Virus record (IMG/VR): IMGVR_UViG_2778261166_000006
Coordinates: 1 to 33,750 of that record
DNA from: a virus
Taxonomy: Duplodnaviria; Heunggongvirae; Uroviricota; Caudoviricetes
Reading direction: 5' to 3' (one strand)
Length of the DNA stretch: 33,750 bases
In this document: piece by piece, positions 6,867-16,987 of the stretch
Position numbering within the stretch: the first letter of the stretch is position 1
Layout: every line of letters starts with the position of its first letter
Translations under genes and position numbers: made by a program
The notes under the pieces: generated by a model
Told to the model about the DNA's origin: nothing
The model's database searches: none
What the model saw: only the letters and a program-made list of their open reading frames with translations

Positions 6867-7681
6867 GTATGGAGCTGATGGTTAAAGCGATGAAAATTCG
6901 AGTGGGTAATCCATTGCGAAAACTGGTTCTGATCAAGCTGGCTGATAATGCCAGCGATCAGGGTGAGTGCTGGCCCAGCTACCAGCATATTGCTGACCAG
7001 TGCGAGATTAGCAAACGTTCTGTGATGAATCATATTGCGGCCCTTTGTGAGTCCGGGCTGGTAAAAAAAGTCACCCGGAAAGGTGAAAAAGGTAACTCAA
7101 GTAATATCTATCTCCTTCATCTGGATGGTGCAGGAGATTCACTAGGGGGTAGAGCAAATAATTCACTATCTGGTGCAGCAAATTCACCATGTAGTGCAGG
7201 AGTTGCACTAGGGGGTAGTGCAGGAGATTCACCCAGAACCAGTCACTCTTTTGAACCAGTCAAAGAACCAGTCAATGAACCAATAGCTGTTGGTGCATCA
7301 GCTGATGAGTCCGTGCGAGTTCGTTCAAACCGACCGGAATACTCTCCGGAGTTTGAGCAGGCATGGCTGGTATATCCCAAACGTGCTGGTGGCAATTCAA
7401 AATCTGCAGCCTTCAAAGCCTGGAAAGCCCGTTTGAATGAGGGGGTAAACCCCGAAACCATGCTGGAAGGTGTGAAACGCTACGCGGGCTGGGTATCTGC
7501 GATGGGTAACAGCGGCACACAATTTGTGAAACAGGCTGTCACGTTCTTTGGCCCGGATCGTCATTTCGAAGAACCCTGGGAAGTTCCTGCGGTATCTGCA
7601 GCCAGACGCGAGGACCCGTACTTCAAAGCCAGTTACGACAACGTGGACTACAGCCAGATCCCGGCAGGATTCAGGGGGTGA
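6863..7681 (+). CDS. Replication initiation protein (lambda O-like, N-terminal HTH)
   Basis: GGAGG at 6852-6856; N-terminus LRKLVLIKLADNASDQGECWPSYQHIADQCEISKRSVMNHIAALCESGLV has an HTH; low-complexity middle encoded by repeated DNA; conserved-looking C-terminus. Confidence 0.55.
   Translation: MSMELMVKAMKIRVGNPLRKLVLIKLADNASDQGECWPSYQHIADQCEISKRSVMNHIAALCESGLVKKVTRKGEKGNSSNIYLLHLDGAGDSLGGRANNSLSGAANSPCSAGVALGGSAGDSPRTSHSFEPVKEPVNEPIAVGASADESVRVRSNRPEYSPEFEQAWLVYPKRAGGNSKSAAFKAWKARLNEGVNPETMLEGVKRYAGWVSAMGNSGTQFVKQAVTFFGPDRHFEEPWEVPAVSAARREDPYFKASYDNVDYSQIPAGFRG
7129..7282. repeat. Iteron-like direct repeats inside the O-like gene (candidate origin)
   Basis: GTGCAGGAGATTCAC at 7129 and 7218; CACTAGGGGGTAG at 7140 and 7206; GAACCAGTCA three times at 7237, 7253 and 7265. 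Confidence 0.4.
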
Positions 7682-8172
7682 TTATGAGTCTTTTGAATGA
7701 AGTTCAGAAATTCATTGAAGCCCATCCGGGGTGTACTTCCGGAGACATTGCAGATGCTTTTGCAGGTTACTCACGGCAGCGCGTTCTGCAGTCTGCAAGC
7801 AAGTTACGTCAGAGTGGGCGTGTGGCTCACCGTTGTGAAGGGGATACACGCAGACATTTCCCGCGCCAGACAAAGATATCGCCGGAGGCGGAACGGCAAC
7901 CAGTTCGTGAAACCAGATCTGTGCGCAATTTCTATGTCGGCACTAACGACCCGCGGGTGGTTTTGTGCCTGGCCCGCCAGGCGGAAGAACTGGAGTCCAG
8001 GGGCTTATTTCGTCGTGCTGCAACCGTGTGGATGGCGGCATTCCGTGAAAGCCACTCCCAGCCAGAACGAAACAATTTTCTGGCGCGTCGTGAGCGGTGC
8101 TTACGGAAAAGCAGCAAGCGCGCTGCATCGGGTGAAGAGTGGTATCTGTCAGGGAATTACGTGGGGGCTTAA
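7678..8172 (+). CDS. Phage regulatory protein, possibly PerC-like
   Basis: C-terminal GLFRRAATVWMAAFRES...RRERC resembles my recollection of the PerC-family motif; start overlaps the upstream stop. Confidence 0.4.
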   Translation: MIMSLLNEVQKFIEAHPGCTSGDIADAFAGYSRQRVLQSASKLRQSGRVAHRCEGDTRRHFPRQTKISPEAERQPVRETRSVRNFYVGTNDPRVVLCLARQAEELESRGLFRRAATVWMAAFRESHSQPERNNFLARRERCLRKSSKRAASGEEWYLSGNYVGA

Positions 8173-8498
8173 TGACGACGTTAACTCAATGCCAGCAGCA
8201 GGTGCTGGATATGCTGATTTCTTATCAGAAAGAACGTGGCTTCCCGCCAACCAATCAGGAGGTGGCAACCATGCTGGGATACCGTTCGGTGAATGCAGCG
8301 GTGGAGCATCTTCGTGCGCTGGAGAAAAAAGGCGTCATCACGATAAAGCGTGGCGTGGCCCGGGGGATAACGCTTCATACCGCGGTGAAGGACGACGACA
8401 GCGAGGCGGTCGGGATTATCCGCTCACTGCTTGCCGGTGAGGAAAACGCCAGGCTGCGTGCAGCCCACTGGTTACATGAGAGGGGCCTGAAAGTATGA
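8172..8498 (+). CDS. LexA N-terminal DNA-binding-domain-like protein with no peptidase domain
   Basis: LTQCQQQVLDMLISYQKERGFPPTNQEVATMLGYRSVNAAVEHLRALEKKGVITI parallels the LexA winged-HTH; TAATG stop/start overlap with the upstream gene. Confidence 0.55.
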   Translation: MTTLTQCQQQVLDMLISYQKERGFPPTNQEVATMLGYRSVNAAVEHLRALEKKGVITIKRGVARGITLHTAVKDDDSEAVGIIRSLLAGEENARLRAAHWLHERGLKV

Positions 8499-8884
8499 AG
8501 CTTATTCTGCCTTTTCCGCCCAGCGTGAACACGTACTGGCGACACCCCAACAAAGGGGCGTTTGCTGGTAAGAGCCTGATAAGCACGGCGGGGCGAAAAT
8601 TCCAGAGCGCGGCGTGCGCAGCAATAGTTGAGCAGTTACGTCGTCTGCCGAAACCAACGTCGGCACCTGCTGCAGTGGAGATCGTGTTGTTTCCACCGGA
8701 TAACCGGATCCGCGATCTGGACAACTATAACAAGGCGCTGTTTGACGCCCTGACCCACTCGGGTGTGTGGGAAGACGACAGTCAGGTGAAAAGAATGCTG
8801 GTGGAGTGGGGACCGGTTATCCCGGAAGGGAAGGTCGAGATCACTATCAGTAAGTACGAGAAACCGGCGGGTGCAGCCGCCTGA
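8495..8884 (+). CDS. rusA: RusA Holliday-junction resolvase
   Basis: ILPFPPSVNTYWRH and RDLDNYNKALFDALT parallel the E. coli RusA motifs. Confidence 0.85.
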   Translation: MKLILPFPPSVNTYWRHPNKGAFAGKSLISTAGRKFQSAACAAIVEQLRRLPKPTSAPAAVEIVLFPPDNRIRDLDNYNKALFDALTHSGVWEDDSQVKRMLVEWGPVIPEGKVEITISKYEKPAGAAA

Positions 8885-8903
8885 TTAAGAGGAGAAACGA
8901 AGT

Positions 8904-9701
8904 ATGAATAATCTGATGGTCATTGATGGTATTGAAGTTCGTCGTGATGCTTATGGTCGTTACAGCCTGAACGATCTGCACAGGGCTGCCGGTTCTCTGG
9001 ATAAGCATAAGCCTGCATTCTGGCTCCGCAATGAGCAAACTGAACGTTTAATAAGCGAGTTGCAGATTTGCAACTCGGTCAATATAGAGCCAGTTAACGT
9101 TATTCGTGGCGGAAATAACCAGGGGACGTATGTCTGCAAAGAACTGGTGTATGCCTATGCAATGTGGATCAGCCCGTCATTCCATCTGAAGGTGATCCGT
9201 ACTTTCGACATGGTAACCAGCGCACCTGAAAAATTATCCGGACAGGCTGCTGACAAGATGCAGGCTGGCGTGATTCTGCTGGACTTTATGCGCCGGGAGT
9301 TAAATCTGTCTAACTCTTCAGTGCTTGGAGCCTGTCAGAAACTTCAGGAGGCTGTTGGCTTACCGAATCTGGCACCGCGCTATGCCATTGATGCTCCTGC
9401 TGATGCACACGATGGCTCAAGTCGCCCGACACTGTCACTGAGTGCACTGCTGAAACAGTATGGTATCCGCCTGACGGCTAATCAGGCATATCACCAGATG
9501 GTGAAGCTGGGGATCGTCGAGCAGCGCGAACGATACAGCCGTACCGCGATTAACAACATCAAAAAATTCTGGTCGCTGACAGCGAAAGGTTGCATGTTCG
9601 GCAAGAACATCACCAGTCCCGCAAATCCGCGCGAGACGCAGCCGCATTTCTTCGAATCCCGATTCCCTGAGCTGTTAAAGCTGCTCGATACCGTTCATTG
9701 A
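8904..9701 (+). CDS. KilA-N domain protein (antirepressor-like)
   Basis: N-terminus VIDGIEVRRDAYGRYSLNDLHRAAG...WLRNEQT fits the KilA-N pattern. Confidence 0.65.
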   Translation: MNNLMVIDGIEVRRDAYGRYSLNDLHRAAGSLDKHKPAFWLRNEQTERLISELQICNSVNIEPVNVIRGGNNQGTYVCKELVYAYAMWISPSFHLKVIRTFDMVTSAPEKLSGQAADKMQAGVILLDFMRRELNLSNSSVLGACQKLQEAVGLPNLAPRYAIDAPADAHDGSSRPTLSLSALLKQYGIRLTANQAYHQMVKLGIVEQRERYSRTAINNIKKFWSLTAKGCMFGKNITSPANPRETQPHFFESRFPELLKLLDTVH

Positions 9702-9702
9702 G

Positions 9703-10698
9703 GTGACCGTGAGAGCACTACTGACCCCTGAAATTGCCCCGCGTATGGGGATCGTATTGTTCAGGCCAGGTTCAGAGCTGATGCCCCTGTTTATGCAGGG
9801 GCGTGTCCTGCTGGAGCCTGAGCCGGAACGTTACTCATCTTTCGCCAGTGGTGCCGTTCCGGCGGCATCACAACCGCTGGCGGATGATCCTGCCGTTCGG
9901 GCCGTGTTCCGCAATGAGGCAGTGATCCGTCGTGCTGGTGGCGTGGAATGTCTTGAAAGCTGGTTACTTCGTGAAAAAGGCTGCCAGTGGCCTCATTCCG
10001 ACTGGCACAGCGAGAACATGACCACAATGCGACACGCTCCGGGCGCAATCCGTCTGTGCTGGCACTGCGATAACCAGCTGCGCGATCAGTTCACGGAACG
10101 GCTGGAATCAATGGCAACGGATAACTGTGCCCGCTGGGTGTTGTCTGTTGTGCGTCGGGATCTCGGTTTTGATGACAGTCACGTTGTGACAATGCCGGAA
10201 CTGTGCTGGTGGTTGATTCGTAATGATCTGGCGGATGCCTTACCGGAAAGTGCAGCCCGTAAGGCACTGAGATTACCGAAGCCTGTTGTGCCATCTGTCA
10301 CCCGGGAAAGTGACCTTGTGCCTTCGGTTCCTGCCACCAGCATCATCCAGGATAAAGCGAAAAAGGTGCTGGCGCTGAAAGTGGATCCGGAGTCGCCGGA
10401 GTCTTTTATGTTACGCCCCAAACGTCGCCGCTGGGTTAATGAAAAGTACACGCGCTGGGTTAAGACGCAGCCGTGCGCATGTTGTGGAAAGCCAGCTGAT
10501 GATCCCCACCACCTGATAGGTCACGGTCAGGGTGGAATGGGTACAAAAGCGCATGACCTCTTTGTGTTGCCTTTGTGCAGAAAGCATCACGACGAGCTGC
10601 ATGCGGATACCGTGGCATTTGAAGAGAAGTATGGCTCCCAGCTGGAGCTGATATTTCGTTTTATCGATCGTGCGCTGGCAATAGGCGTGCTGGCCTGA
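9703..10698 (+). CDS. DUF968-like nin-region protein with a Cys/His-rich C-terminus
   Basis: C-terminus CACCGKPADDPHHLIGHGQGGMGTKAHDLFVLPLCRKHHDELH. Confidence 0.5.
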   Translation: MTVRALLTPEIAPRMGIVLFRPGSELMPLFMQGRVLLEPEPERYSSFASGAVPAASQPLADDPAVRAVFRNEAVIRRAGGVECLESWLLREKGCQWPHSDWHSENMTTMRHAPGAIRLCWHCDNQLRDQFTERLESMATDNCARWVLSVVRRDLGFDDSHVVTMPELCWWLIRNDLADALPESAARKALRLPKPVVPSVTRESDLVPSVPATSIIQDKAKKVLALKVDPESPESFMLRPKRRRWVNEKYTRWVKTQPCACCGKPADDPHHLIGHGQGGMGTKAHDLFVLPLCRKHHDELHADTVAFEEKYGSQLELIFRFIDRALAIGVLA

Positions 10699-10700
10699 TT

Positions 10701-11063
10701 TTGTGGAGAAAGTTGATGCGTGATATGTATGAAGTATTGGACCGCTGGGGTGCATGGGCTGCAGCAGACAACAGTGGTGTGGACTGGCAGCCGGTAGCAG
10801 CAGGCTTCAAGGGGCTTTTACCACACGGTAAAAAGTCACGCCTTCAGTGCGATGATGACGAAGGCATTATGATTGATGGTTGTGTGGCTAGACTGCGAAA
10901 GCATAAACCAGAGGAATATGAGCTGATCATTGCACATTTTGTTATCGGGATTTCGCTCCGTACAATTGCGAAGAGGCGTAACTATTCTGATGGTACTGTC
11001 AGAAAAGAATTGCAGGCCGCACTTGGTTTTATTGAAGGTGTTTGTTTTATGCTCAATATTTAA
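10701..11063 (+). CDS. Q: Late-gene antiterminator Q (QuuD / phage-82-type family)
   Basis: ERWGAWAA...AAGFKGL...KSRLQCDDD...GCVARLRK...DGTVRKELQAALGFIEG matches the recalled QuuD-like Q signature; position before the lysis cassette. Confidence 0.8.
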   Translation: MWRKLMRDMYEVLDRWGAWAAADNSGVDWQPVAAGFKGLLPHGKKSRLQCDDDEGIMIDGCVARLRKHKPEEYELIIAHFVIGISLRTIAKRRNYSDGTVRKELQAALGFIEGVCFMLNI

Positions 11064-12280
11064 ATTAGCACGTCATTTATTAATAAAGCTAATATGCCAA
11101 CACATGTTGGCATCCATGATAAGCAGCGCATTAAGTCCAATACTCTTATGCAGAATACTTCATTTTTGTTTAACTCTATTTGAGCTATTTGTAATCTGAG
11201 TTTGAGTTCATTTTGCTCTTCACTCAATCTGTTCATCATAGTATCGAATAAGGTATCTTTTGCATGAATTATGCGTTCAAGTTGACGTTTTTGAGACACT
11301 GCGACTAGATAAGTAATAATAGATGTCAATAAGATCCCTAAAAATGCCACTATAGAAACTAATTCCCCTGTCATTTGAAATATCGATATTGCAGCAACTA
11401 GTGATACAGGGATGGCTAAAGCTTTGTTGGCTATTTCAGATACGACTTTGGATATTTTGTCTGCATAATCAATTTCAGCATCGGCAATCTCTTTTCTTGT
11501 TTTATGGAAAGAGAATGCAGACATATATACAGCAAGGTTGTTGCTATATAACTCATTGATATCGTTCCAGTTTTTTATTATATTGATAAATGAGCCATTT
11601 GTCTTTGAAATATATTCAATCAGTGTATTTCTGAATGTGTTCAGTTTTTCAAGATAGTGATTATCTTTGCTTGCATCGGATTTAGATAAATTGGCTATAA
11701 GATTGATATTTAGGTCTTCAATATCAAGGACCTCCTCTGTTAAATTAGTTTCAATTACTGCTGTTGTTGATTTCGATTCTGAATGTAGTACAAAAACAAG
11801 GCGATAGAAGCTGGTGTTTCTATCACTTTTGGTATCGTGGAAATGAGCTATGTTCGATAAACATGAAATTAATTGACAAATTTTTTCAATTGTCATTATA
11901 TAGTCAGGCTTTTGGGCATCATAAGAATAAAAATCACTTTCTGCAATGTAATAGTTCTTAGGCATTACGCCTTTTCGAAGAGTATTAATTTCTATAAACT
12001 CTCTTTTTGAAGCATAAAATCTATCTGCACTTCTACGTGCGACTTTAAATGAATATGTTAAAGTGGTTCCTGAATTAGGCAGATCATTTCCATCGTAAAT
12101 CTCGCAACCATCAATTTCAATTTCATCGAATGAACCTTCGTTGAAATTATCATCTAGCATAGTAGTCAACAGCATTTTAATATCTGTTGTATAATCTATT
12201 GACGCCGAAAACTTAACACCGTCGAAATGGGGTGTTTTAGATTTTCTAAATAAATCTACTACAATTTTCAACTGATTCAT
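11060..12280 (-). CDS. Membrane protein (406 aa) with a soluble N-terminal domain and C-terminal hydrophobic segments; downstream gene of the cargo operon
   Basis: Visibly AT-rich. Hydrophobic stretches ALAIPVSLVAAISIFQMTG and LVSIVAFLGILLTSIITYLVAV, plus a hydrophobic C-terminal tail; coiled-coil-like segment between. Start lies 19 nt after the upstream gene's stop. Confidence 0.6.
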   Translation of the reverse strand: MNQLKIVVDLFRKSKTPHFDGVKFSASIDYTTDIKMLLTTMLDDNFNEGSFDEIEIDGCEIYDGNDLPNSGTTLTYSFKVARRSADRFYASKREFIEINTLRKGVMPKNYYIAESDFYSYDAQKPDYIMTIEKICQLISCLSNIAHFHDTKSDRNTSFYRLVFVLHSESKSTTAVIETNLTEEVLDIEDLNINLIANLSKSDASKDNHYLEKLNTFRNTLIEYISKTNGSFINIIKNWNDINELYSNNLAVYMSAFSFHKTRKEIADAEIDYADKISKVVSEIANKALAIPVSLVAAISIFQMTGELVSIVAFLGILLTSIITYLVAVSQKRQLERIIHAKDTLFDTMMNRLSEEQNELKLRLQIAQIELNKNEVFCIRVLDLMRCLSWMPTCVGILALLINDVLI

Positions 12281-12299
12281 TTTATTTTTCTTTTATAAC

Positions 12300-13430
12300 T
12301 CAGTTTAACAAATTCATTTCTTTTAAGGCATCTTTTATTTTTTTTTGCGCTTCTATAGGGAGTCTGTTAAATGTAAGATTCCCATGCTCAGCGTCATAGA
12401 AAATTGTAGCATCAGTAGTTATGCCAAGCAAATCTTTGTCGAAATTAAAACTATATTGATCTGCTTTGAAAATAACATTCCTTAATTTGTCAAGAGATGT
12501 TTTATTTATGACGAACTCCGAAGGAACTCTAACCTCCTCGCTGTTTAAATATTGCATGAGCTCTCTTACTAGGGGGGCTTTTTTATCATCATCTAAAAAT
12601 GCCATGTGAGTTGCAGAAATAGATTCAATATCTGTAAGCTTTGCAGAGCAATTGTTTCCGAACTGGGATTCTAAATATTTTATTACTGCGTTTCTTACTG
12701 CATTTGCATGAGGGCGTAATTCTTTGTGTTTTTTAAAAAACTTTTTTACCTCATTTGGAAGTTTGCGGGTTGCTCCAGCTGATGCGATCCCCTTATCACA
12801 CCCAAGAGCTGCGATGAAATATGCAGCAGCAGACTGTCCCGTAGTTTTGTTGATGAAGCTTAAGTAGCTTAATTCTGTTTTTTGAACATCATCAGCTTGG
12901 TGATATTGATAGTATAAGTGAAAATTTATTTTTGCAGCTTGGTTAATATTATTTAACTCCAGATGTATCATTTCTTCTGGCTCGAGTTTTTCGCTAATTG
13001 TTACTCCATTCGTTTTTTTTATCATAGCTACAAGAAAATATCTGATGCCTGCTGAAATATAATCAGTAAAAACAATGTATCCTCCAGAAGACCAAGATTG
13101 AGATTTGGCTGAATGATACATTTGTTCCATTATTTTCTTTGTTAAGTTAATAAAGTCAATAGATTGAGAAGTTGCTGTTTGGTGATACTGATCAAATAAT
13201 ACCGGGATTGGACCTTGTTCTTTTGGGGCGCTTTTGAATACACCGTAATGTGCTGAGTTGCCTTTAGAGCCATAAAGAGCAACGACCCCTTCAACAAGGG
13301 AAATTACAACAGCGTTTGTTTTATCAAGTTCAGAATCACGCAGGTTGTATCGTTTCGAGTGGTCAAAATCTTTATCTTTCTCTTTTAATAGCTCGTGAAC
13401 AATAACGTGGTTGATTTTTAGGTTTGGCAT
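12300..13430 (-). CDS. NdpA/YejK-like (NA37 family) nucleoid-associated-protein homolog; upstream gene of the cargo operon
   Basis: MPNLKINHVIVHEL, GGYIVFTDY...YFLVAMI, YLSFINKTTGQSAAAYFIAALG and the C-terminal KDLLGITTDATIFYDAEHGNLTF parallel blocks I recall from E. coli YejK. The first in-frame codon of the listed ORF (13454) is TTG, so the start is set at the ATG at 13430. Confidence 0.5.
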   Translation of the reverse strand: MPNLKINHVIVHELLKEKDKDFDHSKRYNLRDSELDKTNAVVISLVEGVVALYGSKGNSAHYGVFKSAPKEQGPIPVLFDQYHQTATSQSIDFINLTKKIMEQMYHSAKSQSWSSGGYIVFTDYISAGIRYFLVAMIKKTNGVTISEKLEPEEMIHLELNNINQAAKINFHLYYQYHQADDVQKTELSYLSFINKTTGQSAAAYFIAALGCDKGIASAGATRKLPNEVKKFFKKHKELRPHANAVRNAVIKYLESQFGNNCSAKLTDIESISATHMAFLDDDKKAPLVRELMQYLNSEEVRVPSEFVINKTSLDKLRNVIFKADQYSFNFDKDLLGITTDATIFYDAEHGNLTFNRLPIEAQKKIKDALKEMNLLN

Positions 13431-13543
13431 TTTTTTCGTTTTTGTTGGGGACAATATAGGTTGTATGAGGATAATAAAAAGTTAACGCGTACGCAAAAAC
13501 TATTGTATCGTGTTAAGAGTGGTTACTTCGCCACACAGCTTAA

Positions 13544-13715: not shown

Positions 13716-14042
13716 ATGCCTCATAACCCAAATACCTGGCTGGAGTTGGTCCAGAGCTGGTGGCGTGGAGACACACCGCTGGGCGCAGTGATTATGTCGA
13801 TTGTTATGGCTGGTTTACGTATTGCCTATTTTGGCGGTGGTGGCGGCTGGAAGCGAAAAACACTCGAAATTCTACTCTGTGGCGCTCTGACGCTGACTTT
13901 TGCATCCGCTCTTGAGTATGTCGGATGGCCTAAATCACTATCTGTTGCCATTGGTGGTGGGGTGGGGCTGATCGGTGTTGATGCTATTCGTGGGGCTGCA
14001 ATGAGAGTAATCGGTAACAAGTTTGGTGGCTCTAAGGAGTAA
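13716..14042 (+). CDS. S: Holin (lambda S-like, class I)
   Basis: Hydrophobic segments; similarity to lambda S; directly upstream of the endolysin. Confidence 0.8.
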   Translation: MPHNPNTWLELVQSWWRGDTPLGAVIMSIVMAGLRIAYFGGGGGWKRKTLEILLCGALTLTFASALEYVGWPKSLSVAIGGGVGLIGVDAIRGAAMRVIGNKFGGSKE

Positions 14043-14045
14043 TTT

Positions 14046-14522
14046 ATGCAGGTACTAAATTCCCAGCGTAAAGCTTTCCTGGATATGGTGGCATGGTCAG
14101 AGGGAACGGATAACGGACGGCAGAAAACCAGAAATCATGGTTATGACGTCATTGTTGGCGGAGAGCTATTTACCGATTACTCCGATCATCCTCGCAAACT
14201 TGTCACACTAAACCCGAAACTCAAATCAACAGCCGCAGGCCGTTATCAACTTCTTTCACGCTGGTGGGATGCTTACCGTAAACAGCTTGGTTTGAAAGAC
14301 TTCTCCCCCAAAAGCCAGGACGCTGTGGCACTGCAACAGATTAAAGAGCGTGGCGCTTTGACGATGATTGATCGCGGCGATATTCGTCAGGCAATCGACC
14401 GTTGCAGCAATATATGGGCTTCTTTGCCGGGCGCTGGTTACGGTCAGTATGAACATAAAATTGGTGACCTGATTGCCAGGTTTAAAGAGGCTGGTGGAGT
14501 GATAAATGAAGTTGAGCTATAA
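14046..14522 (+). CDS. R: Endolysin (lambda R-like lytic transglycosylase)
   Basis: Near-identical over most of its length to lambda R as I recall it (NSQRKAFLDMVAWSEGTDNGRQKTRNHGYDVIVGGELFTDYSDHPRKLVTLNPKLKST...). Confidence 0.95.
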   Translation: MQVLNSQRKAFLDMVAWSEGTDNGRQKTRNHGYDVIVGGELFTDYSDHPRKLVTLNPKLKSTAAGRYQLLSRWWDAYRKQLGLKDFSPKSQDAVALQQIKERGALTMIDRGDIRQAIDRCSNIWASLPGAGYGQYEHKIGDLIARFKEAGGVINEVEL

Positions 14523-14970
14523 GCTGGTTATCGCTGCATTCTTCGTTACTGTCATTGGTTCTTTTATCTGTTCAGTGAATCATTACCACAATAAAGCCAT
14601 TGAATACAAAAAGCAGCGTGATGAGAATGCTATGGCATTAGATTCGGCTATGGCGACCATCGCTGATATGCAGAAGCGTCAACGTGATGTAGCAGAACTC
14701 GATGCCAGATATACAAAGGAGTTAGCTAATGCGAAAATCACTATCAGTAATCTGCGTAGGGATATTGATGCTGGCCGTAAGCGGCTGCGGGTCAAAGCAA
14801 ACTGTTCAGCAAACGGAGCGACCGGCACCGGTGGCATGGGCGATGCTTCCTCCCCCAGACTTACTGACTCCGCTGAACGGGATTATTTCGCCCTTAGAGA
14901 GCGAATCGTCACAGTGACGAAGCAAGTCAGCTATCTTCAGAGCTATATCAAGGGACAGTGCCAAAAATGA
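14506..14970 (+). CDS. Rz: Rz i-spanin
   Basis: N-terminal transmembrane segment, then NHYHNKAIEYKKQRDENA...MQKRQRDVAELDARYTKELA...SPRLTDSAERDYFALRER parallels lambda Rz. Confidence 0.85.
   Translation: MKLSYKLVIAAFFVTVIGSFICSVNHYHNKAIEYKKQRDENAMALDSAMATIADMQKRQRDVAELDARYTKELANAKITISNLRRDIDAGRKRLRVKANCSANGATGTGGMGDASSPRLTDSAERDYFALRERIVTVTKQVSYLQSYIKGQCQK
14729..14917 (+). CDS. Rz1: Rz1 o-spanin lipoprotein, embedded in the +1 frame of Rz
   Basis: Signal peptide with lipobox VSGC; Pro-rich PPPDLLTPLNGIISP parallels lambda Rz1; lies entirely inside Rz. Confidence 0.8.
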   Translation: MRKSLSVICVGILMLAVSGCGSKQTVQQTERPAPVAWAMLPPPDLLTPLNGIISPLESESSQ

Positions 14971-15035
14971 TATAGTGGACTATAGCCTTCATTAAAGGAT
15001 AGGATGCTATATTATGTCCTGAAGGAGATGTCAGA

Positions 15036-15938
15036 ATGGGAAATATAGATCCATTATCATTAGTGACTACAATGGTTAGTCTTAATTTGAATGGCGTGCA
15101 AGTTTCACAGGGAACAGGGTTCTTTTATCAATCTATTGAAGAACAACTTTTATTCTTGGTAACAAATTATCATGTTGTCACCGGACATAGCCCACAATCA
15201 AAAGAATCGCCTTTAGGTGACTCAATTTCCTTCAAAGTTAGGGTGAAATCAGGTGGCAGCAAAACCATTGAGATTCCTCTTTTTAAAAACGGCAAACCAA
15301 CTTGGCTTCAGCATGCAAGTAAGAAAAATGCTGATATAGCAGTAATTCCATTGTTTGGAGATAATCTTAAAGATTGCGAATTCGAAGCATTAAACAGTGG
15401 AGTCAAGAACGAGGATGTTTATAAAGGTCCGACAGCACGAGTAACACTAATTGGCTATCCATATGGTTTTCATGATGCTGCAAATATGCTTCCTGTTTGG
15501 AAAACAGGAAGTGTCGCCAGTGAGCCTGAATATGATTTCAATGGTGAAAAAACAATTGTATTAGATATCTCAGCTTTCCCTGGAATGTCTGGATCTCCTG
15601 CCATGATAGTGGCCAAAGGAGGGTATGGTGATAAAGATGGAAATATGTATGCAGGTAATGCTTATCATTTCTTAGGTATATACGCCAGCATGAATATGTT
15701 CAACAGTGAGCTGAATCTTGAGCAAGTTTCAAATGATGCTAAAAAATTTGTTACGCATACCGAGTCATTGCAGCTTGGAATAATTTGGAAGGCGTCATTA
15801 ATTGACGATATAGTTAATAATTTCAACCTAGAATCTTGGCTTCAGGGATTTAGACAGTCTGCATTACAAGCGAATCTGAAATTAGGTAATGGTCTTCAAT
15901 TAAGCGAAGATGGTAAGAGTGTAATATTCAAATTTTGA
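15036..15938 (+). CDS. Trypsin-like (S1/chymotrypsin-fold) serine protease, AT-rich stand-alone cargo gene
   Basis: Candidate catalytic triad in canonical order: His in LVTNYHVV, Asp in KNADIAVIPLF, Ser in FPGMSGSPAM. AAGGAG ribosome-binding site at 15022-15027; own terminator downstream. Confidence 0.7.
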   Translation: MGNIDPLSLVTTMVSLNLNGVQVSQGTGFFYQSIEEQLLFLVTNYHVVTGHSPQSKESPLGDSISFKVRVKSGGSKTIEIPLFKNGKPTWLQHASKKNADIAVIPLFGDNLKDCEFEALNSGVKNEDVYKGPTARVTLIGYPYGFHDAANMLPVWKTGSVASEPEYDFNGEKTIVLDISAFPGMSGSPAMIVAKGGYGDKDGNMYAGNAYHFLGIYASMNMFNSELNLEQVSNDAKKFVTHTESLQLGIIWKASLIDDIVNNFNLESWLQGFRQSALQANLKLGNGLQLSEDGKSVIFKF

Positions 15939-15943
15939 TTACC

Positions 15944-15970
15944 GCCGCCTACGGGCGGCTTTTTATTTTT
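15944..15970 (+). terminator. Rho-independent terminator after the protease gene
   Basis: GCCGCC-TACG-GGCGGC followed by TTTTTATTTTT. Confidence 0.6.
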
Positions 15971-16015
15971 ATCTCCATGGTTTGCTCTATCGTAATAGTT
16001 TAAGGGGAAGCATTA

Positions 16016-16366
16016 ATGCCACCGCGAACCCCAAAAGCCTGCCGTGTTCGTGGCTGCCGCCATACCACCACAGACCCGTCAGGCTACTGCGAAAGCCACA
16101 AAAGCGAAGGCTGGAAGCAATACAAGCCAGGCCAGTCCCGTCATCAGCGCGGCTACGGTTCGAAATGGGATGCTATCCGTGAACGTGTACTGAAGCGTGA
16201 CAAAGGCCTGTGTCAGTTATGTCTGCGTGCCGGTGTGGTGCGTGAGGCGAAAACCGTTGACCACATCATCCCTAAAGCACATGGCGGCACTGATGCCGAC
16301 AGTAATCTGCAGAGTCTGTGCTGGCCGTGTCATAAGGCGAAGACGGCCCGTGAACGGTTAAAGTGA
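16016..16366 (+). CDS. HNH endonuclease (terminase-associated)
   Basis: Cys/His-rich: CRVRGCRH...GLCQLCLRAGVVREAKTVDHIIPKAHGGTDADSNLQSLCWPCHKAK. Confidence 0.85.
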   Translation: MPPRTPKACRVRGCRHTTTDPSGYCESHKSEGWKQYKPGQSRHQRGYGSKWDAIRERVLKRDKGLCQLCLRAGVVREAKTVDHIIPKAHGGTDADSNLQSLCWPCHKAKTARERLK

Positions 16367-16391
16367 TAATAATTCTCAACTGTCTGTGGGG

Positions 16392-16453
16392 GAGGGGCGG
16401 GTCAAATCCCTGTGACCTGACGTCTTCCGGACTGCCCGCCCCATCGTTTTTTT
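16392..16453 (+). terminator. Long GC-rich hairpin (GGGGCGGG...CCCGCCCC) followed by a T7 run
   Basis: Arms at 16394-16401 and 16435-16442, then TCGTTTTTTT; lies between HNH and the terminase small subunit. Confidence 0.4.
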
Positions 16454-16492
16454 ATACCCGCGAAAAATGAAATTTAACCAGGAGTGCCGCAT

Positions 16493-16987
16493 ATGGCTGG
16501 AACGGCGGGGCGTTCCGGGCGTCGCCCCAAGCCAACGGCGCGCAAGGCGCTGGCCGGAAACCCCGGCAAGCGAGCCCTGAATAAAGATGAACCTGTTTTT
16601 ACGCCCATCAAAGGTGTTGAGCCACCGGAGTGGTTCGCTGAAGAAGATCTCCCTCTCGCCACGATCATGTGGCAACTGACAACCAAAGAACTCTGCGGTC
16701 AGGGCCTGCTGTGCGTGACTGACCTCGCGGTGCTTGAGCGGTGGTGTGTGGCCTATGAGTTCTGGCGACGTGCCGTGAAAAATATTGCCAGACAGGGCAA
16801 CACCATCACCGGTGCAATGGGCGGTATGGTCAAAAATCCTGAGCTGACCGCCAAAAAAGAACAGGAGTCCGAGATGAGCAGTACGGGGGCAATGCTCGGA
16901 CTCGACCCCAGCAGCCGCCAGCGTCTGATTGGCCTGGCGGGGCAGAAGAAAGCCACTAACCCGTTTCTGAAAATTATCGAATCATGA
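16493..16987 (+). CDS. Terminase small subunit (P27 family)
   Basis: [30 protein letters not shown] is a P27-family N-terminus; GGAG 8 nt upstream; the ORF-finder start at 16484 is GTG. Confidence 0.8.

What the first reader, a model, noticed from the sequence alone, without database searches (positions are those of the whole stretch)
15036..15970. Stand-alone trypsin-like serine protease gene with its own terminator, inserted between the lysis genes and the packaging module
An AT-rich 300-aa ORF with a complete His/Asp/Ser arrangement in trypsin order, a strong ribosome-binding site and a strong terminator interrupts the otherwise contiguous Rz-to-HNH-terminase late region. Its composition and insulation mark it as acquired cargo rather than a virion gene. 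A free protease carried here could act in superinfection exclusion or abortive infection.
Basis: partly seen in the sequence, partly recalled or inferred. Interest (0 to 1): 0.6.

Follow-up and report, generated by a model that had tools for sequence, protein, structure and literature searches.

The report
Stand-alone serine protease prophage cargo
An E. coli prophage carries a rare, recently acquired, intact trypsin-type protease gene in the swappable slot between its lysis and DNA-packaging genes. It belongs to a catalogued but untested candidate anti-phage family, so it is a reasonable defence candidate rather than a new kind of system.

Summary

It is cargo. GC is 37% against 55-58% in the packaging genes. 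Homology to related SfV/e14-like phages stops at the Rz stop codon and resumes at the HNH start codon. The same slot is empty or holds other genes in relatives, and the phage has its own HK97 prohead protease. Only 7 of 5426 complete E. coli genomes have any detectable relative.

Homologues at 46-53% identity sit in the same lysis-terminase slot of many enterobacterial prophages with at least five terminase types. The gene evolves under purifying selection (dN/dS 0.05-0.11).

The protein matches PADLOC candidate PDC-S45 (E 9e-45) and phrog_7688. I found no experimental validation and no conserved partner gene or sensor domain.

A defence role is plausible but unproven. Contexts outside phages are mixed, including a conserved protease-ECF sigma-kinase cluster in Acidobacteriota, and no convincing promoter of its own was found.

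Verdict: a real, well-bounded moron and a new member of a known candidate family, of moderate interest.

The parts
14971..16015 (+). Variable cargo slot between the Rz stop codon and the HNH start codon; its only gene is the protease
   Evidence: blastn against seven related phages and prophages: homology ends at 14970 at the latest (L093) and resumes at 16012-16017 in all. Slot GC is 0.375.
15005..15013 (+). Possible extended -10 promoter element TGcTATATT (weak, unverified)
   Evidence: Read by eye. It was not reported by the consensus scan, which requires a -35 element. It is not conserved in the closest relative cassette L069, which has TGCTCCATT.
15022..15027 (+). Shine-Dalgarno AAGGAG, 8 nt upstream of the ATG
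   Evidence: Sequence; the same GAAGGAGATGTCAGAATG leader is present in L069.
15036..15938 (+). CDS for a 300-aa cytoplasmic chymotrypsin-fold serine protease (PDC-S45 / phrog_7688 family)
   Evidence: annotated 'S1 family peptidase' WP_063121955.1 in RefSeq.
15171..15173 (+). Catalytic His46 codon (motif TNYHV)
   Evidence: Invariant in alignment A1.
15333..15335 (+). Catalytic Asp100 codon (motif ADIAVIP)
   Evidence: Invariant in alignment A1.
15588..15590 (+). Catalytic Ser185 codon (motif PGMSGSP)
   Evidence: Invariant in alignment A1.
15858..15935 (+). Disordered C-terminal tail (residues 275-300) ending in F-K-F, specific to the enterobacterial prophage clade
   Evidence: pLDDT below 50 for residues 275-300. 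The tail and its terminal aromatic-x-K/G-F motif are present only in the enterobacterial sequences of A1.
15944..15969 (+). Intrinsic terminator: 6-bp all-GC stem, 4-nt loop, T-run
   Evidence: analogous hairpin plus T-run follows most homologous cassettes (L069, L070, L072, L074, L079, L081, L008).
14506..14970 (+). Left anchor: Rz i-spanin, with the embedded Rz1 lipoprotein ORF at 14729-14917
   Evidence: Pfam Phage_lysis E 3.4e-43; the Rz1 ORF has an LAVSGC lipobox.
16016..16366 (+). Right anchor: HNH endonuclease that starts the packaging module
   Evidence: Pfam HNH E 2.3e-16; 91-95% nucleotide identity to relatives from its start codon onward.

Best explanation
The gene is a horizontally acquired accessory cassette (a 'moron') sitting at the lysis-packaging junction of an e14/SfV-like E. 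coli prophage. It encodes a catalytically competent, cytoplasmic, single-domain chymotrypsin-fold serine protease of the PDC-S45 / phrog_7688 family. Its most likely role is in phage-phage conflict: made at a low level in the lysogen, it would protect the lysogen, and so the prophage, from other phages. Because it has no sensor domain and no partner gene, specificity must reside in the protease itself. My preferred mechanism is that it stays harmless until a protein of an incoming phage appears. That protein would either be the substrate (direct inactivation) or would complete a substrate complex with a conserved host protein, as the Gol peptide does for Lit and EF-Tu (abortive infection). Shown here: the gene, its boundaries, the fold, the triad, cargo status, purifying selection, recurrence in the same slot of unrelated prophages, and membership of the candidate family. 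Inferred: expression in the lysogen, anti-phage activity, the trigger and the target.
For: Cargo status: the slot is bounded exactly by the Rz stop and the HNH start. Relatives have it empty (720R4) or filled with a 168-aa orphan, a DUF6236 protein, a small ORF, Rha or an IS911-disrupted 47%-identical homologue (SfII). GC is 0.371 against 0.55-0.58. Only 7 of 5426 complete E. coli genomes have any detectable relative.

It is not the maturation protease: a separate HK97 prohead protease is annotated between portal and capsid.

Cytoplasmic: the maximum 19-residue hydropathy is 1.37 and the N-terminus is part of the fold.

Defence lead: PADLOC PDC-S45 at E 9.4e-45 covering positions 18-283 of 293, with weaker matches to the protease effector domains of LmuA and the retron type XI RT-protease. 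There is no conserved neighbour. All 150 best representatives are 98-365 aa with no fused sensor domains.

Recurrence: homologues in Serratia, Citrobacter and more than 20 IMG/VR prophages sit between lysis genes and terminases of at least five families.

Some non-phage homologues lie next to a TIR protein and HNH, AAA_15/21, zeta and ParE, or a HerA-like ATPase and DUF4062.

The other AT-rich slot of the same prophage (11060-13454) holds a distant relative of the DS-1 nucleoid-associated anti-phage pair.
Against: I found no experimental validation of PDC-S45 or of any stand-alone S1 protease as a defence. There was no NCBIfam anti-phage model hit.

No convincing sigma-70 promoter lies upstream. 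The only candidate, an extended -10, is lost in the closest relative cassette. The gene may therefore be transcribed mainly from the late promoter during lytic growth, which a defence gene would not need.

Other occupants of the slot gave no PADLOC hit.

Neighbourhoods of 34 non-phage homologues are mostly not defence-like. Five Acidobacteriota loci show a conserved protease-ECF sigma-Ser/Thr kinase arrangement that points to signalling.

How a sensor-less protease would be kept harmless is unexplained.
Confidence: 0.5

Rival explanations
1. A late-expressed phage fitness factor. The protease is transcribed with the late operon from pR' (Q-modified polymerase reads through its terminator) and acts during the prophage's own lytic cycle. 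It could degrade host proteins, tune lysis, or damage competitors at the end of infection. It would have no role in the lysogen.
For: The gene is co-oriented with the late operon and lies directly after Rz/Rz1. No solid promoter of its own was found. Homologues in more than 20 prophages keep the same position after the lysis cassette.
Against: The same slot holds unrelated cargo or nothing in close relatives, so the lytic cycle does not need it. The family is widespread in non-phage chromosomal contexts. One distant homologue is on the opposite strand to the flanking lysis and terminase genes (L091). A terminator directly after the gene is typical of insulated morons.
Confidence: 0.2
2. A counter-defence or host-manipulation protease that cleaves a host immune or regulatory protein for the benefit of the carrying phage.
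For: It is a cytoplasmic active protease carried by a phage. The high conservation of the core across phyla (mean column identity 47%) would fit a conserved cellular target.
Against: Known counter-defence genes are usually expressed early, whereas this gene lies at the very end of the late lysis cluster. Chromosomal homologues in non-phage contexts are hard to reconcile with an anti-host role.
Confidence: 0.1
3. A regulatory protease of a signalling pathway, of the DegS / anti-sigma type, that has merely hitch-hiked on phages.
For: The closest structural neighbours are DegS, Deg1 and the RsgI9 anti-sigma S1C domain. Five Acidobacteriota loci from two classes keep the order protease, ECF sigma (PF07638), Ser/Thr kinase.
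Against: No sigma factor, anti-sigma factor or kinase lies next to the E. coli, Serratia or Citrobacter prophage copies. The protein has no PDZ domain or membrane anchor. The Acidobacteriota proteins are only 38-41% identical.
Confidence: 0.1
4. A lysogenic-conversion or virulence protease released from the cell, like the phage-borne exfoliative toxin A or the Spl proteases of S. aureus.
For: The best sequence matches among solved structures are exfoliative toxin B (E 0.0015) and a staphylococcal-type serine protease. Spl proteases appear among the Foldseek hits. The gene lies next to the lysis genes, so the protein could be released at lysis.
Against: There is no signal peptide or transmembrane segment. 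The family is spread through soil and water bacteria such as Nitrospira, Acidobacteriota and Bacteroidota. The PDB sequence matches are marginal and cover only part of the domain.
Confidence: 0.05
5. A virion maturation (prohead) or other structural protease.
For: It is a protease gene close to the packaging and head module.
Against: A dedicated HK97-family prohead protease lies between portal and major capsid. The gene is absent from close relatives that are complete phages (720R4, SfIV, SfV). Its base composition is foreign. It lies outside the portal-protease-capsid block.
Confidence: 0.01

Closest known systems
PADLOC phage-defence candidate PDC-S45 (also PHROG phrog_7688, function unknown)
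   Same: Near full-length HMM match (E 9.4e-45, profile positions 18-283 of 293; phrog_7688 E 2.5e-103). It is a single gene of about 280-300 aa with one Trypsin_2 domain.
   Different: Nothing structural differs. The family is only a computational candidate, and I found no published test of it.
Lit protease of the e14 element (abortive infection; cleaves EF-Tu when the T4 Gol peptide is present)
   Same: It is a single-gene, sensor-less cytoplasmic protease carried by an e14-family prophage integrated at icd. That makes Lit a working model for how a lone protease can act as an immune system (Lit mechanism as summarised in 10.1101/2024.10.26.620412).
   Different: Lit is a zinc metalloprotease (Peptidase_U49, my own knowledge). 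This protein is a chymotrypsin-fold serine protease with no homology to Lit, and it sits in a different slot of the prophage. Its target and trigger are unknown.
Trypsin-like effector domains of multi-component defence systems: LmuA-protease of Lamassu, retron type XI RT-protease, and the trypsin-MBL module of Hachiman, pAgo and AVAST
   Same: The protease domain is weakly but significantly similar (LmuA E 6.6e-8; RT-Protease_XI E 2e-7). In those systems the protease is the executing arm (10.1101/2025.09.03.673762).
   Different: Those proteases are fused or coupled to a sensor (SMC-like LmuB/C, RT plus msDNA, HamAB) and, in the MBL module, to a nuclease substrate. Here there is no partner, no fusion and no MBL gene.
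HtrA/DegS family (MEROPS S1C)
   Different: There is no PDZ domain, signal peptide or membrane anchor; sequence identity is 14-20%; and the protein is cytoplasmic.
Classical lambdoid morons at the lysis-cos junction (for example lambda bor; morons as defined for HK97/HK022)
   Same: It is an extra gene of foreign composition between conserved neighbours, at the right end of the late lysis cluster, with its own terminator.
   Different: The product is a protease rather than a lipoprotein or other conversion factor, and a promoter of its own is not established.

Membership tests
Chymotrypsin-fold serine peptidases (clan PA, family S1; Pfam Trypsin_2) | Profile match above the curated threshold | tested here: met
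   PF13365, 40.8 bits against a cutoff of 27.6, E 4.8e-10, residues 26-189.
Chymotrypsin-fold serine peptidases (clan PA, family S1; Pfam Trypsin_2) | His-Asp-Ser triad in that order, conserved among homologues | tested here: met
   H46, D100 and S185 are invariant in 26 sequences from several phyla.
Chymotrypsin-fold serine peptidases (clan PA, family S1; Pfam Trypsin_2) | Double beta-barrel fold | tested here: met
Chymotrypsin-fold serine peptidases (clan PA, family S1; Pfam Trypsin_2) | Proteolytic activity | not testable with these tools
   Needs purified protein with an S185A control.
PADLOC candidate PDC-S45 | Near full-length match to the family HMM | tested here: met
   E 9.4e-45, 150.8 bits, protein residues 5-263 against profile positions 18-283 of 293.
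PADLOC candidate PDC-S45 | Single gene with no conserved partner | tested here: met
   Neighbours differ between loci and show no mutual similarity. The top 150 representatives are all single-domain, 98-365 aa.
PADLOC candidate PDC-S45 | Association with defence islands | tested here: inconclusive
   Defence-like neighbours occur in Nitrospira, Echinicola and one metagenomic lineage. Most of the 95 neighbours of 34 genome loci are not defence-like, and five loci show an ECF sigma/kinase cluster. No background rate was computed.
PADLOC candidate PDC-S45 | Demonstrated anti-phage activity | not testable with these tools
   No validation was found in the paper library.
Phage moron | Present or absent between otherwise homologous flanking genes | tested here: met
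Phage moron | Base composition different from the host phage | tested here: met
   GC 0.371 and GC3 0.279, against 0.47-0.58 and 0.44-0.68 in the flanking genes.
Phage moron | Own transcription terminator | tested here: met
   Hairpin at 15944-15959 plus a T-run; the feature recurs in homologous cassettes.
Phage moron | Own promoter active in the lysogen | tested here: inconclusive
   The scan found no consensus promoter. An extended -10, TGcTATATT at 15005-15013, was seen by eye but is not conserved in L069.
Lit-type abortive-infection protease | Zinc metalloprotease domain (Peptidase_U49) | tested here: not met
   The only significant Pfam hit is Trypsin_2.
Lit-type abortive-infection protease | Phage-triggered cleavage of an essential host protein | not testable with these tools
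   Needs infection and proteomics experiments.
Prohead maturation protease | Encoded between portal and major capsid and conserved in all related phages | tested here: not met
   A separate HK97-family prohead protease occupies that position. The S1 gene is absent from 720R4, SfIV and SfV.
HtrA/DegS (S1C) | C-terminal PDZ domain(s) and export signal or membrane anchor | tested here: not met
   No PDZ hit; no hydrophobic segment; the C-terminal 26 residues are disordered.
Lamassu LmuA-protease, retron XI RT-protease, trypsin-MBL modules | Protease fused or adjacent to a sensor (LmuB/C, RT, HamAB) and/or an MBL nuclease | tested here: not met
   The neighbours are Rz and HNH-terminase. The protein is a single domain. 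Only the protease domains are similar, at E about 1e-7.

The most novel reading that the evidence does not exclude
A 300-residue chymotrypsin-fold protease with no sensor domain and no partner is by itself a complete anti-phage immune system. It would be the first stand-alone S1 serine-protease defence, working like Lit by substrate-assisted recognition: a phage protein creates or is the cleavable substrate. The clade-specific disordered C-terminal tail (ending F-K-F) would serve as an autoinhibitory pseudo-substrate or docking peptide. Its strong conservation across phyla would then reflect a universally conserved target.
Probability: 0.3. Interest if true: 0.65.

Novelty: new member of a known kind. 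Interest (0 to 1): 0.4.

Why it matters
If the defence role is confirmed, this would validate the PADLOC candidate family PDC-S45. It would also add a minimal one-domain serine protease to the few protease-based bacterial immune systems; a 2024 survey of 132 defence systems counted only four (Lit, Borvo, Gao_Iet, PD-Lambda-2). That would raise a clear mechanistic question: how does a sensor-less protease tell infected cells from healthy ones?

The work also marks the Rz-to-terminase junction of SfV/e14-like and other lambdoid prophages as a defined cargo-exchange slot worth mining. Together with the Q-to-holin slot of the same prophage, which holds a DS-1-like pair, it gives two such sites in one element.

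As it stands, this is a well-characterised example of a known phenomenon, namely morons in temperate phages, and not a new principle.

Tried and rejected
1. Conserved partner gene. Three homologue loci each had an adjacent ORF of about 210 aa, which suggested a two-gene system. All-against-all BLASTP found no similarity between them, so I rejected the idea.

2. Maturation protease. Rejected because of the separate HK97 prohead protease and the empty sites in close relatives.

3. Secreted toxin-like protease. Rejected for this protein on hydropathy and fold grounds. A few homologues have hydrophobic N-terminal extensions (P0037, P0070, P0097, P0116), which may be miscalled starts; I did not resolve this.

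4. Search for a validated identity. Literature searches for PDC-S45, Trypsin_2 with phage defence, 'S1 family peptidase' with anti-phage, Uzume (which turned out to be GIY-YIG) and the DefensePredictor systems found no validated stand-alone trypsin-like defence. NCBIfam gave no hit.

5. Defence-island test on 34 genome loci by bulk Pfam and PADLOC scans of the two neighbours on each side. The PADLOC list was dominated by PD-T4-6 hits, which are just Ser/Thr kinase homology in the Acidobacteriota ECF sigma/kinase cluster, so it is not evidence for defence.

6. Own promoter. The consensus scan found none. The by-eye extended -10 is not conserved.

7. Solved-structure sequence search. It gave only marginal hits to exfoliative toxin B. 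BFVD gave only generic viral serine proteases.

8. Other cargo in the slot (168-aa orphan, DUF6236 protein, 220-aa ORF, HEPN-like 184-aa protein). None gave a PADLOC hit.

Full report
**1. What is there**

The window has an ATG-initiated ORF at 15036-15938 on the + strand, 300 aa long. No in-frame start codon lies further upstream. AAGGAG sits at 15022-15027, 8 nt before the ATG. Five bases after the stop codon comes a six-pair all-GC hairpin (15944-15959, GCCGCC-TACG-GGCGGC) followed by TTTTTATTTT.

The ORF has 37.1% GC and 27.9% GC at third codon positions. The flanking genes differ clearly: Rz 46.7%, HNH 57.0%, small terminase 58.1%, large terminase 54.5%.

- Upstream: holin (13716-14042), endolysin (14046-14522), and Rz (14506-14970) with an embedded Rz1 lipoprotein ORF (14729-14917).
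- Downstream: HNH endonuclease (16016-16366), P27-family small terminase and large terminase.

**2. The protein**

Family matches:
- Pfam Trypsin_2 is above threshold (E 4.8e-10).
- PHROGs places it in phrog_7688, function unknown (E 2.5e-103).
- PADLOC places it in the single-gene candidate family PDC-S45 (E 9.4e-45, nearly full length). Much weaker matches go to the protease domains of LmuA and of the retron type XI RT-protease.
- NCBIfam has no model for it.

A search of 5.8 billion proteins found 527 homologues. There is an identical cluster on 255 contigs, a few relatives at 83-90% identity, and then a jump to 53% and below. The more distant group spans Serratia, Citrobacter, Leclercia, Enterobacter, Klebsiella, Nitrospira, Echinicola and many metagenomic lineages.

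In a 26-sequence alignment, His46 (TNYHV), Asp100 (ADxAxIP) and Ser185 (PGMSGSP) are invariant. So are further blocks, such as LPxWKTGxxASEP and SLxLGxxWK.

The protein has no hydrophobic segment, and its N-terminus is part of the fold, so it is cytoplasmic.

An exhaustive profile search of 1.84 billion cluster representatives found 316 at E <= 1e-30 and 4353 at E <= 1e-10. The best 150 are all 98-365 aa with one matched domain. The protease therefore does not occur fused to sensor domains.

Against the 92%- and 83%-identical relatives, dN/dS is 0.11 and 0.05, so the gene is under purifying selection.

**3. It is cargo in a defined slot**

Over 14400-16500 the window is 100% identical to the chromosome of E. 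coli TUM1880. There the region belongs to an e14/SfV-like prophage integrated next to icd (intE, xisE, ymfK/T/L, Q antiterminator, HK97-type head genes, contractile tail). That prophage has its own HK97-family prohead protease between portal and major capsid. The S1 protease is therefore not the maturation protease.

blastn against seven relatives shows that homology ends by the Rz stop codon (14970) and resumes at 16012-17, the HNH start codon. Other occupants of the slot are:
- nothing (vB_EcoM-720R4, SfIV, SfV);
- a 168-aa orphan (vB_EcoM-689R6);
- a DUF6236 protein (E. coli LH09-a);
- a small ORF (strain O18);
- Rha regulators (strain 210221272);
- in Shigella phage SfII, a 47%-identical homologue of this protease truncated by IS911.

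Only 7 of 5426 complete E. coli genomes have any blastn-detectable relative of the gene. Three of them carry this allele, one of those truncated.

**4. The same slot in unrelated prophages**

Homologues of 46-53% identity in Serratia and Citrobacter, and in about 20 IMG/VR prophage contigs, also lie directly after the lysis cassette and before the terminase.

Bulk Pfam scans of the three genes on each side show two patterns. Upstream are holins, lysozymes, Rz and LysC. Downstream are terminase families of at least five kinds: Terminase_2/3, Terminase_4 with TerL, GpA, Sf6-type, and DUF2280/DUF1441.

Most of these cassettes end in their own hairpin plus T-run. A 26%-identical relative (L091/L092) sits at the same junction but on the opposite strand, next to a weak HEPN-like ORF.

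The cassette therefore moves between phage backbones and lands at the lysis-packaging junction, which is the classical moron position.

**5. Contexts outside phages are mixed**

Some contexts suggest defence:
- Nitrospira: the gene lies beside a TIR-domain protein and an HNH protein.
- Echinicola: beside an AAA_15/AAA_21 ATPase, a zeta toxin and ParE.
- A metagenomic lineage: beside a HerA/TraG-like ATPase and a DUF4062 protein.
- Ketobacteraceae: beside an SDH-type protease and IS elements.

No neighbour is conserved between these loci.

Other contexts do not. Among 34 genome loci, the commonest neighbours were ECF sigma factors (5), Ser/Thr kinases (4) and RND efflux components (4). Five Acidobacteriota loci share the order protease, ECF sigma, kinase. 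The many PADLOC 'PD-T4-6' hits in that set are simply kinase homology.

Distant relatives (29% identity, still best matched by PDC-S45) occur on about 69 Klebsiella plasmids. In one of these the gene lies beside a dGTPase.

The guilt-by-association evidence for defence is real but modest, and one clade points to signalling instead.

**6. Literature**

PDC-S45 appears in one paper in the library, as a PADLOC hit in Sinorhizobium prophages, with no functional test.

A 2024 survey of 132 defence systems lists four protease-related systems: Lit, Borvo, Gao_Iet and PD-Lambda-2. None of them is a stand-alone S1 protease.

Trypsin-like domains are known as effector arms, for example the trypsin-MBL module of Hachiman, pAgo and AVAST. 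There a sensor releases the protease to activate a nuclease. No MBL gene or sensor is present here.

DefensePredictor's validated systems do not mention a trypsin-like protease.

**7. How it most likely works**

Shown:
- an intact, selected, cytoplasmic S1 protease;
- on an insulated cassette;
- in a cargo slot of a temperate phage;
- belonging to a catalogued defence-candidate family.

Inferred: it is made at a low level in the lysogen and acts against other phages. With no sensor or partner, discrimination must be built into substrate recognition. Either the substrate is a phage protein, or a phage protein completes a cleavable complex with a conserved host protein, as in Lit, Gol and EF-Tu.

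Two features might contribute to keeping it quiet. One is the clade-specific disordered tail ending F-K-F. The other is H-NS silencing of the AT-rich cassette, a general phenomenon reported in the abstract of bioRxiv 10.64898/2026.09.05.749240. Both ideas are speculation.

I put this reading at about 0.5. The main weakness is the lack of a convincing promoter. The scan finds none. The extended -10 I see at 15005-15013 is lost in the closest relative cassette. That leaves room for a late-expressed lytic-cycle function (0.2), counter-defence (0.1) or a regulatory role (0.1). A secreted toxin (0.05) and a maturation protease (0.01) are essentially excluded.

**8. Novelty and verdict**

The gene is annotated in RefSeq as 'S1 family peptidase'. 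It belongs to existing PHROG and PADLOC families, and it sits where morons are expected. It is a new, well-delimited member of a known candidate kind, not a new kind.

Interest is moderate at 0.4. A cheap experiment (wild type against S185A on a phage panel) could convert an untested candidate family into the first stand-alone serine-protease defence. If positive, it would pose a clear mechanistic question.

Noticed in passing
window 11060-13454 (- strand): A second AT-rich cargo island (GC 0.336) lies between the Q antiterminator and the holin. It holds a 406-aa protein (phrog_5023; NCBIfam DS1_2_antiphage E 1.6e-29, below cutoff) and a 384-aa NA37/YejK-like nucleoid-associated protein (NCBIfam DS1_1 'nucleoid-associated anti-phage protein' E 4.6e-29, below cutoff). 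Neither has a PADLOC hit. The pair is probably a divergent relative of a two-gene system with a YejK domain validated in the DefensePredictor study (PMC13092281). In E. coli LH09-a the same slot holds a KAP-family NTPase.
   Followed up: partly
L035, L042, L044, L049, L057 (Acidobacteriota genome contigs), about 5.5-9 kb in each locus: Homologues of the protease (38-41% identity) sit in a conserved arrangement: protease, ECF sigma factor (PF07638), Ser/Thr protein kinase. The cluster lies beside an RND efflux pair, in two classes of Acidobacteriota. This suggests a signalling role for that clade.
   Followed up: partly
window 15858-15935 (protein residues 275-300): The enterobacterial prophage clade carries a disordered C-terminal tail. 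It ends in an aromatic-x-K/G-F motif (FKF, TKF, CKF, FGF), which is absent from the environmental clade. Its function is unknown; it could be an autoinhibitory or docking peptide.
   Followed up: no
L003 (Shigella phage SfII, record 39323-41049); E. coli 20A24 NZ_CP147044.1 near 2224040: Disrupted copies exist. The SfII homologue has lost its first ~44 residues to an IS911 insertion. One of the three E. coli genomes with this allele has only bases 296-903 in one piece. The gene is therefore dispensable for the phage.
   Followed up: partly
L097 (Klebsiella pneumoniae plasmid pKp2177_2), 5920-6792: A distant relative (29% identity, PDC-S45 E 1.4e-18), annotated 'serine protease', is present on about 69 Klebsiella plasmids. 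On this plasmid it lies downstream of a dGTP triphosphohydrolase and next to an IS110 element.
   Followed up: partly
window 353-1297 (- strand): A 314-aa orphan ORF in an AT-rich stretch (GC 0.34-0.38) lies directly beside the integrase gene at the prophage end. It has no Pfam or PADLOC hit. In K-12 e14 this end of the element carries lit (my own knowledge), so this may be a third cargo position.
   Followed up: partly
window about 1-13000 compared with L004: Gene coordinates show a ~591-bp offset between the window and E. coli TUM1880. IntE maps with an offset of 4192, whereas the lysis genes map with an offset of 3601. The window therefore differs from TUM1880 by an indel in the early region, even though 14400-16500 is 100% identical.
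   Followed up: no
alignment A1: P0037, P0070, P0097, P0116: Four environmental homologues are annotated with hydrophobic N-terminal extensions of 20-40 residues that look like signal peptides or anchors. Three of them have a Met at the canonical start, so the extensions may be miscalled starts in AT-rich DNA. This was not resolved.
   Followed up: no
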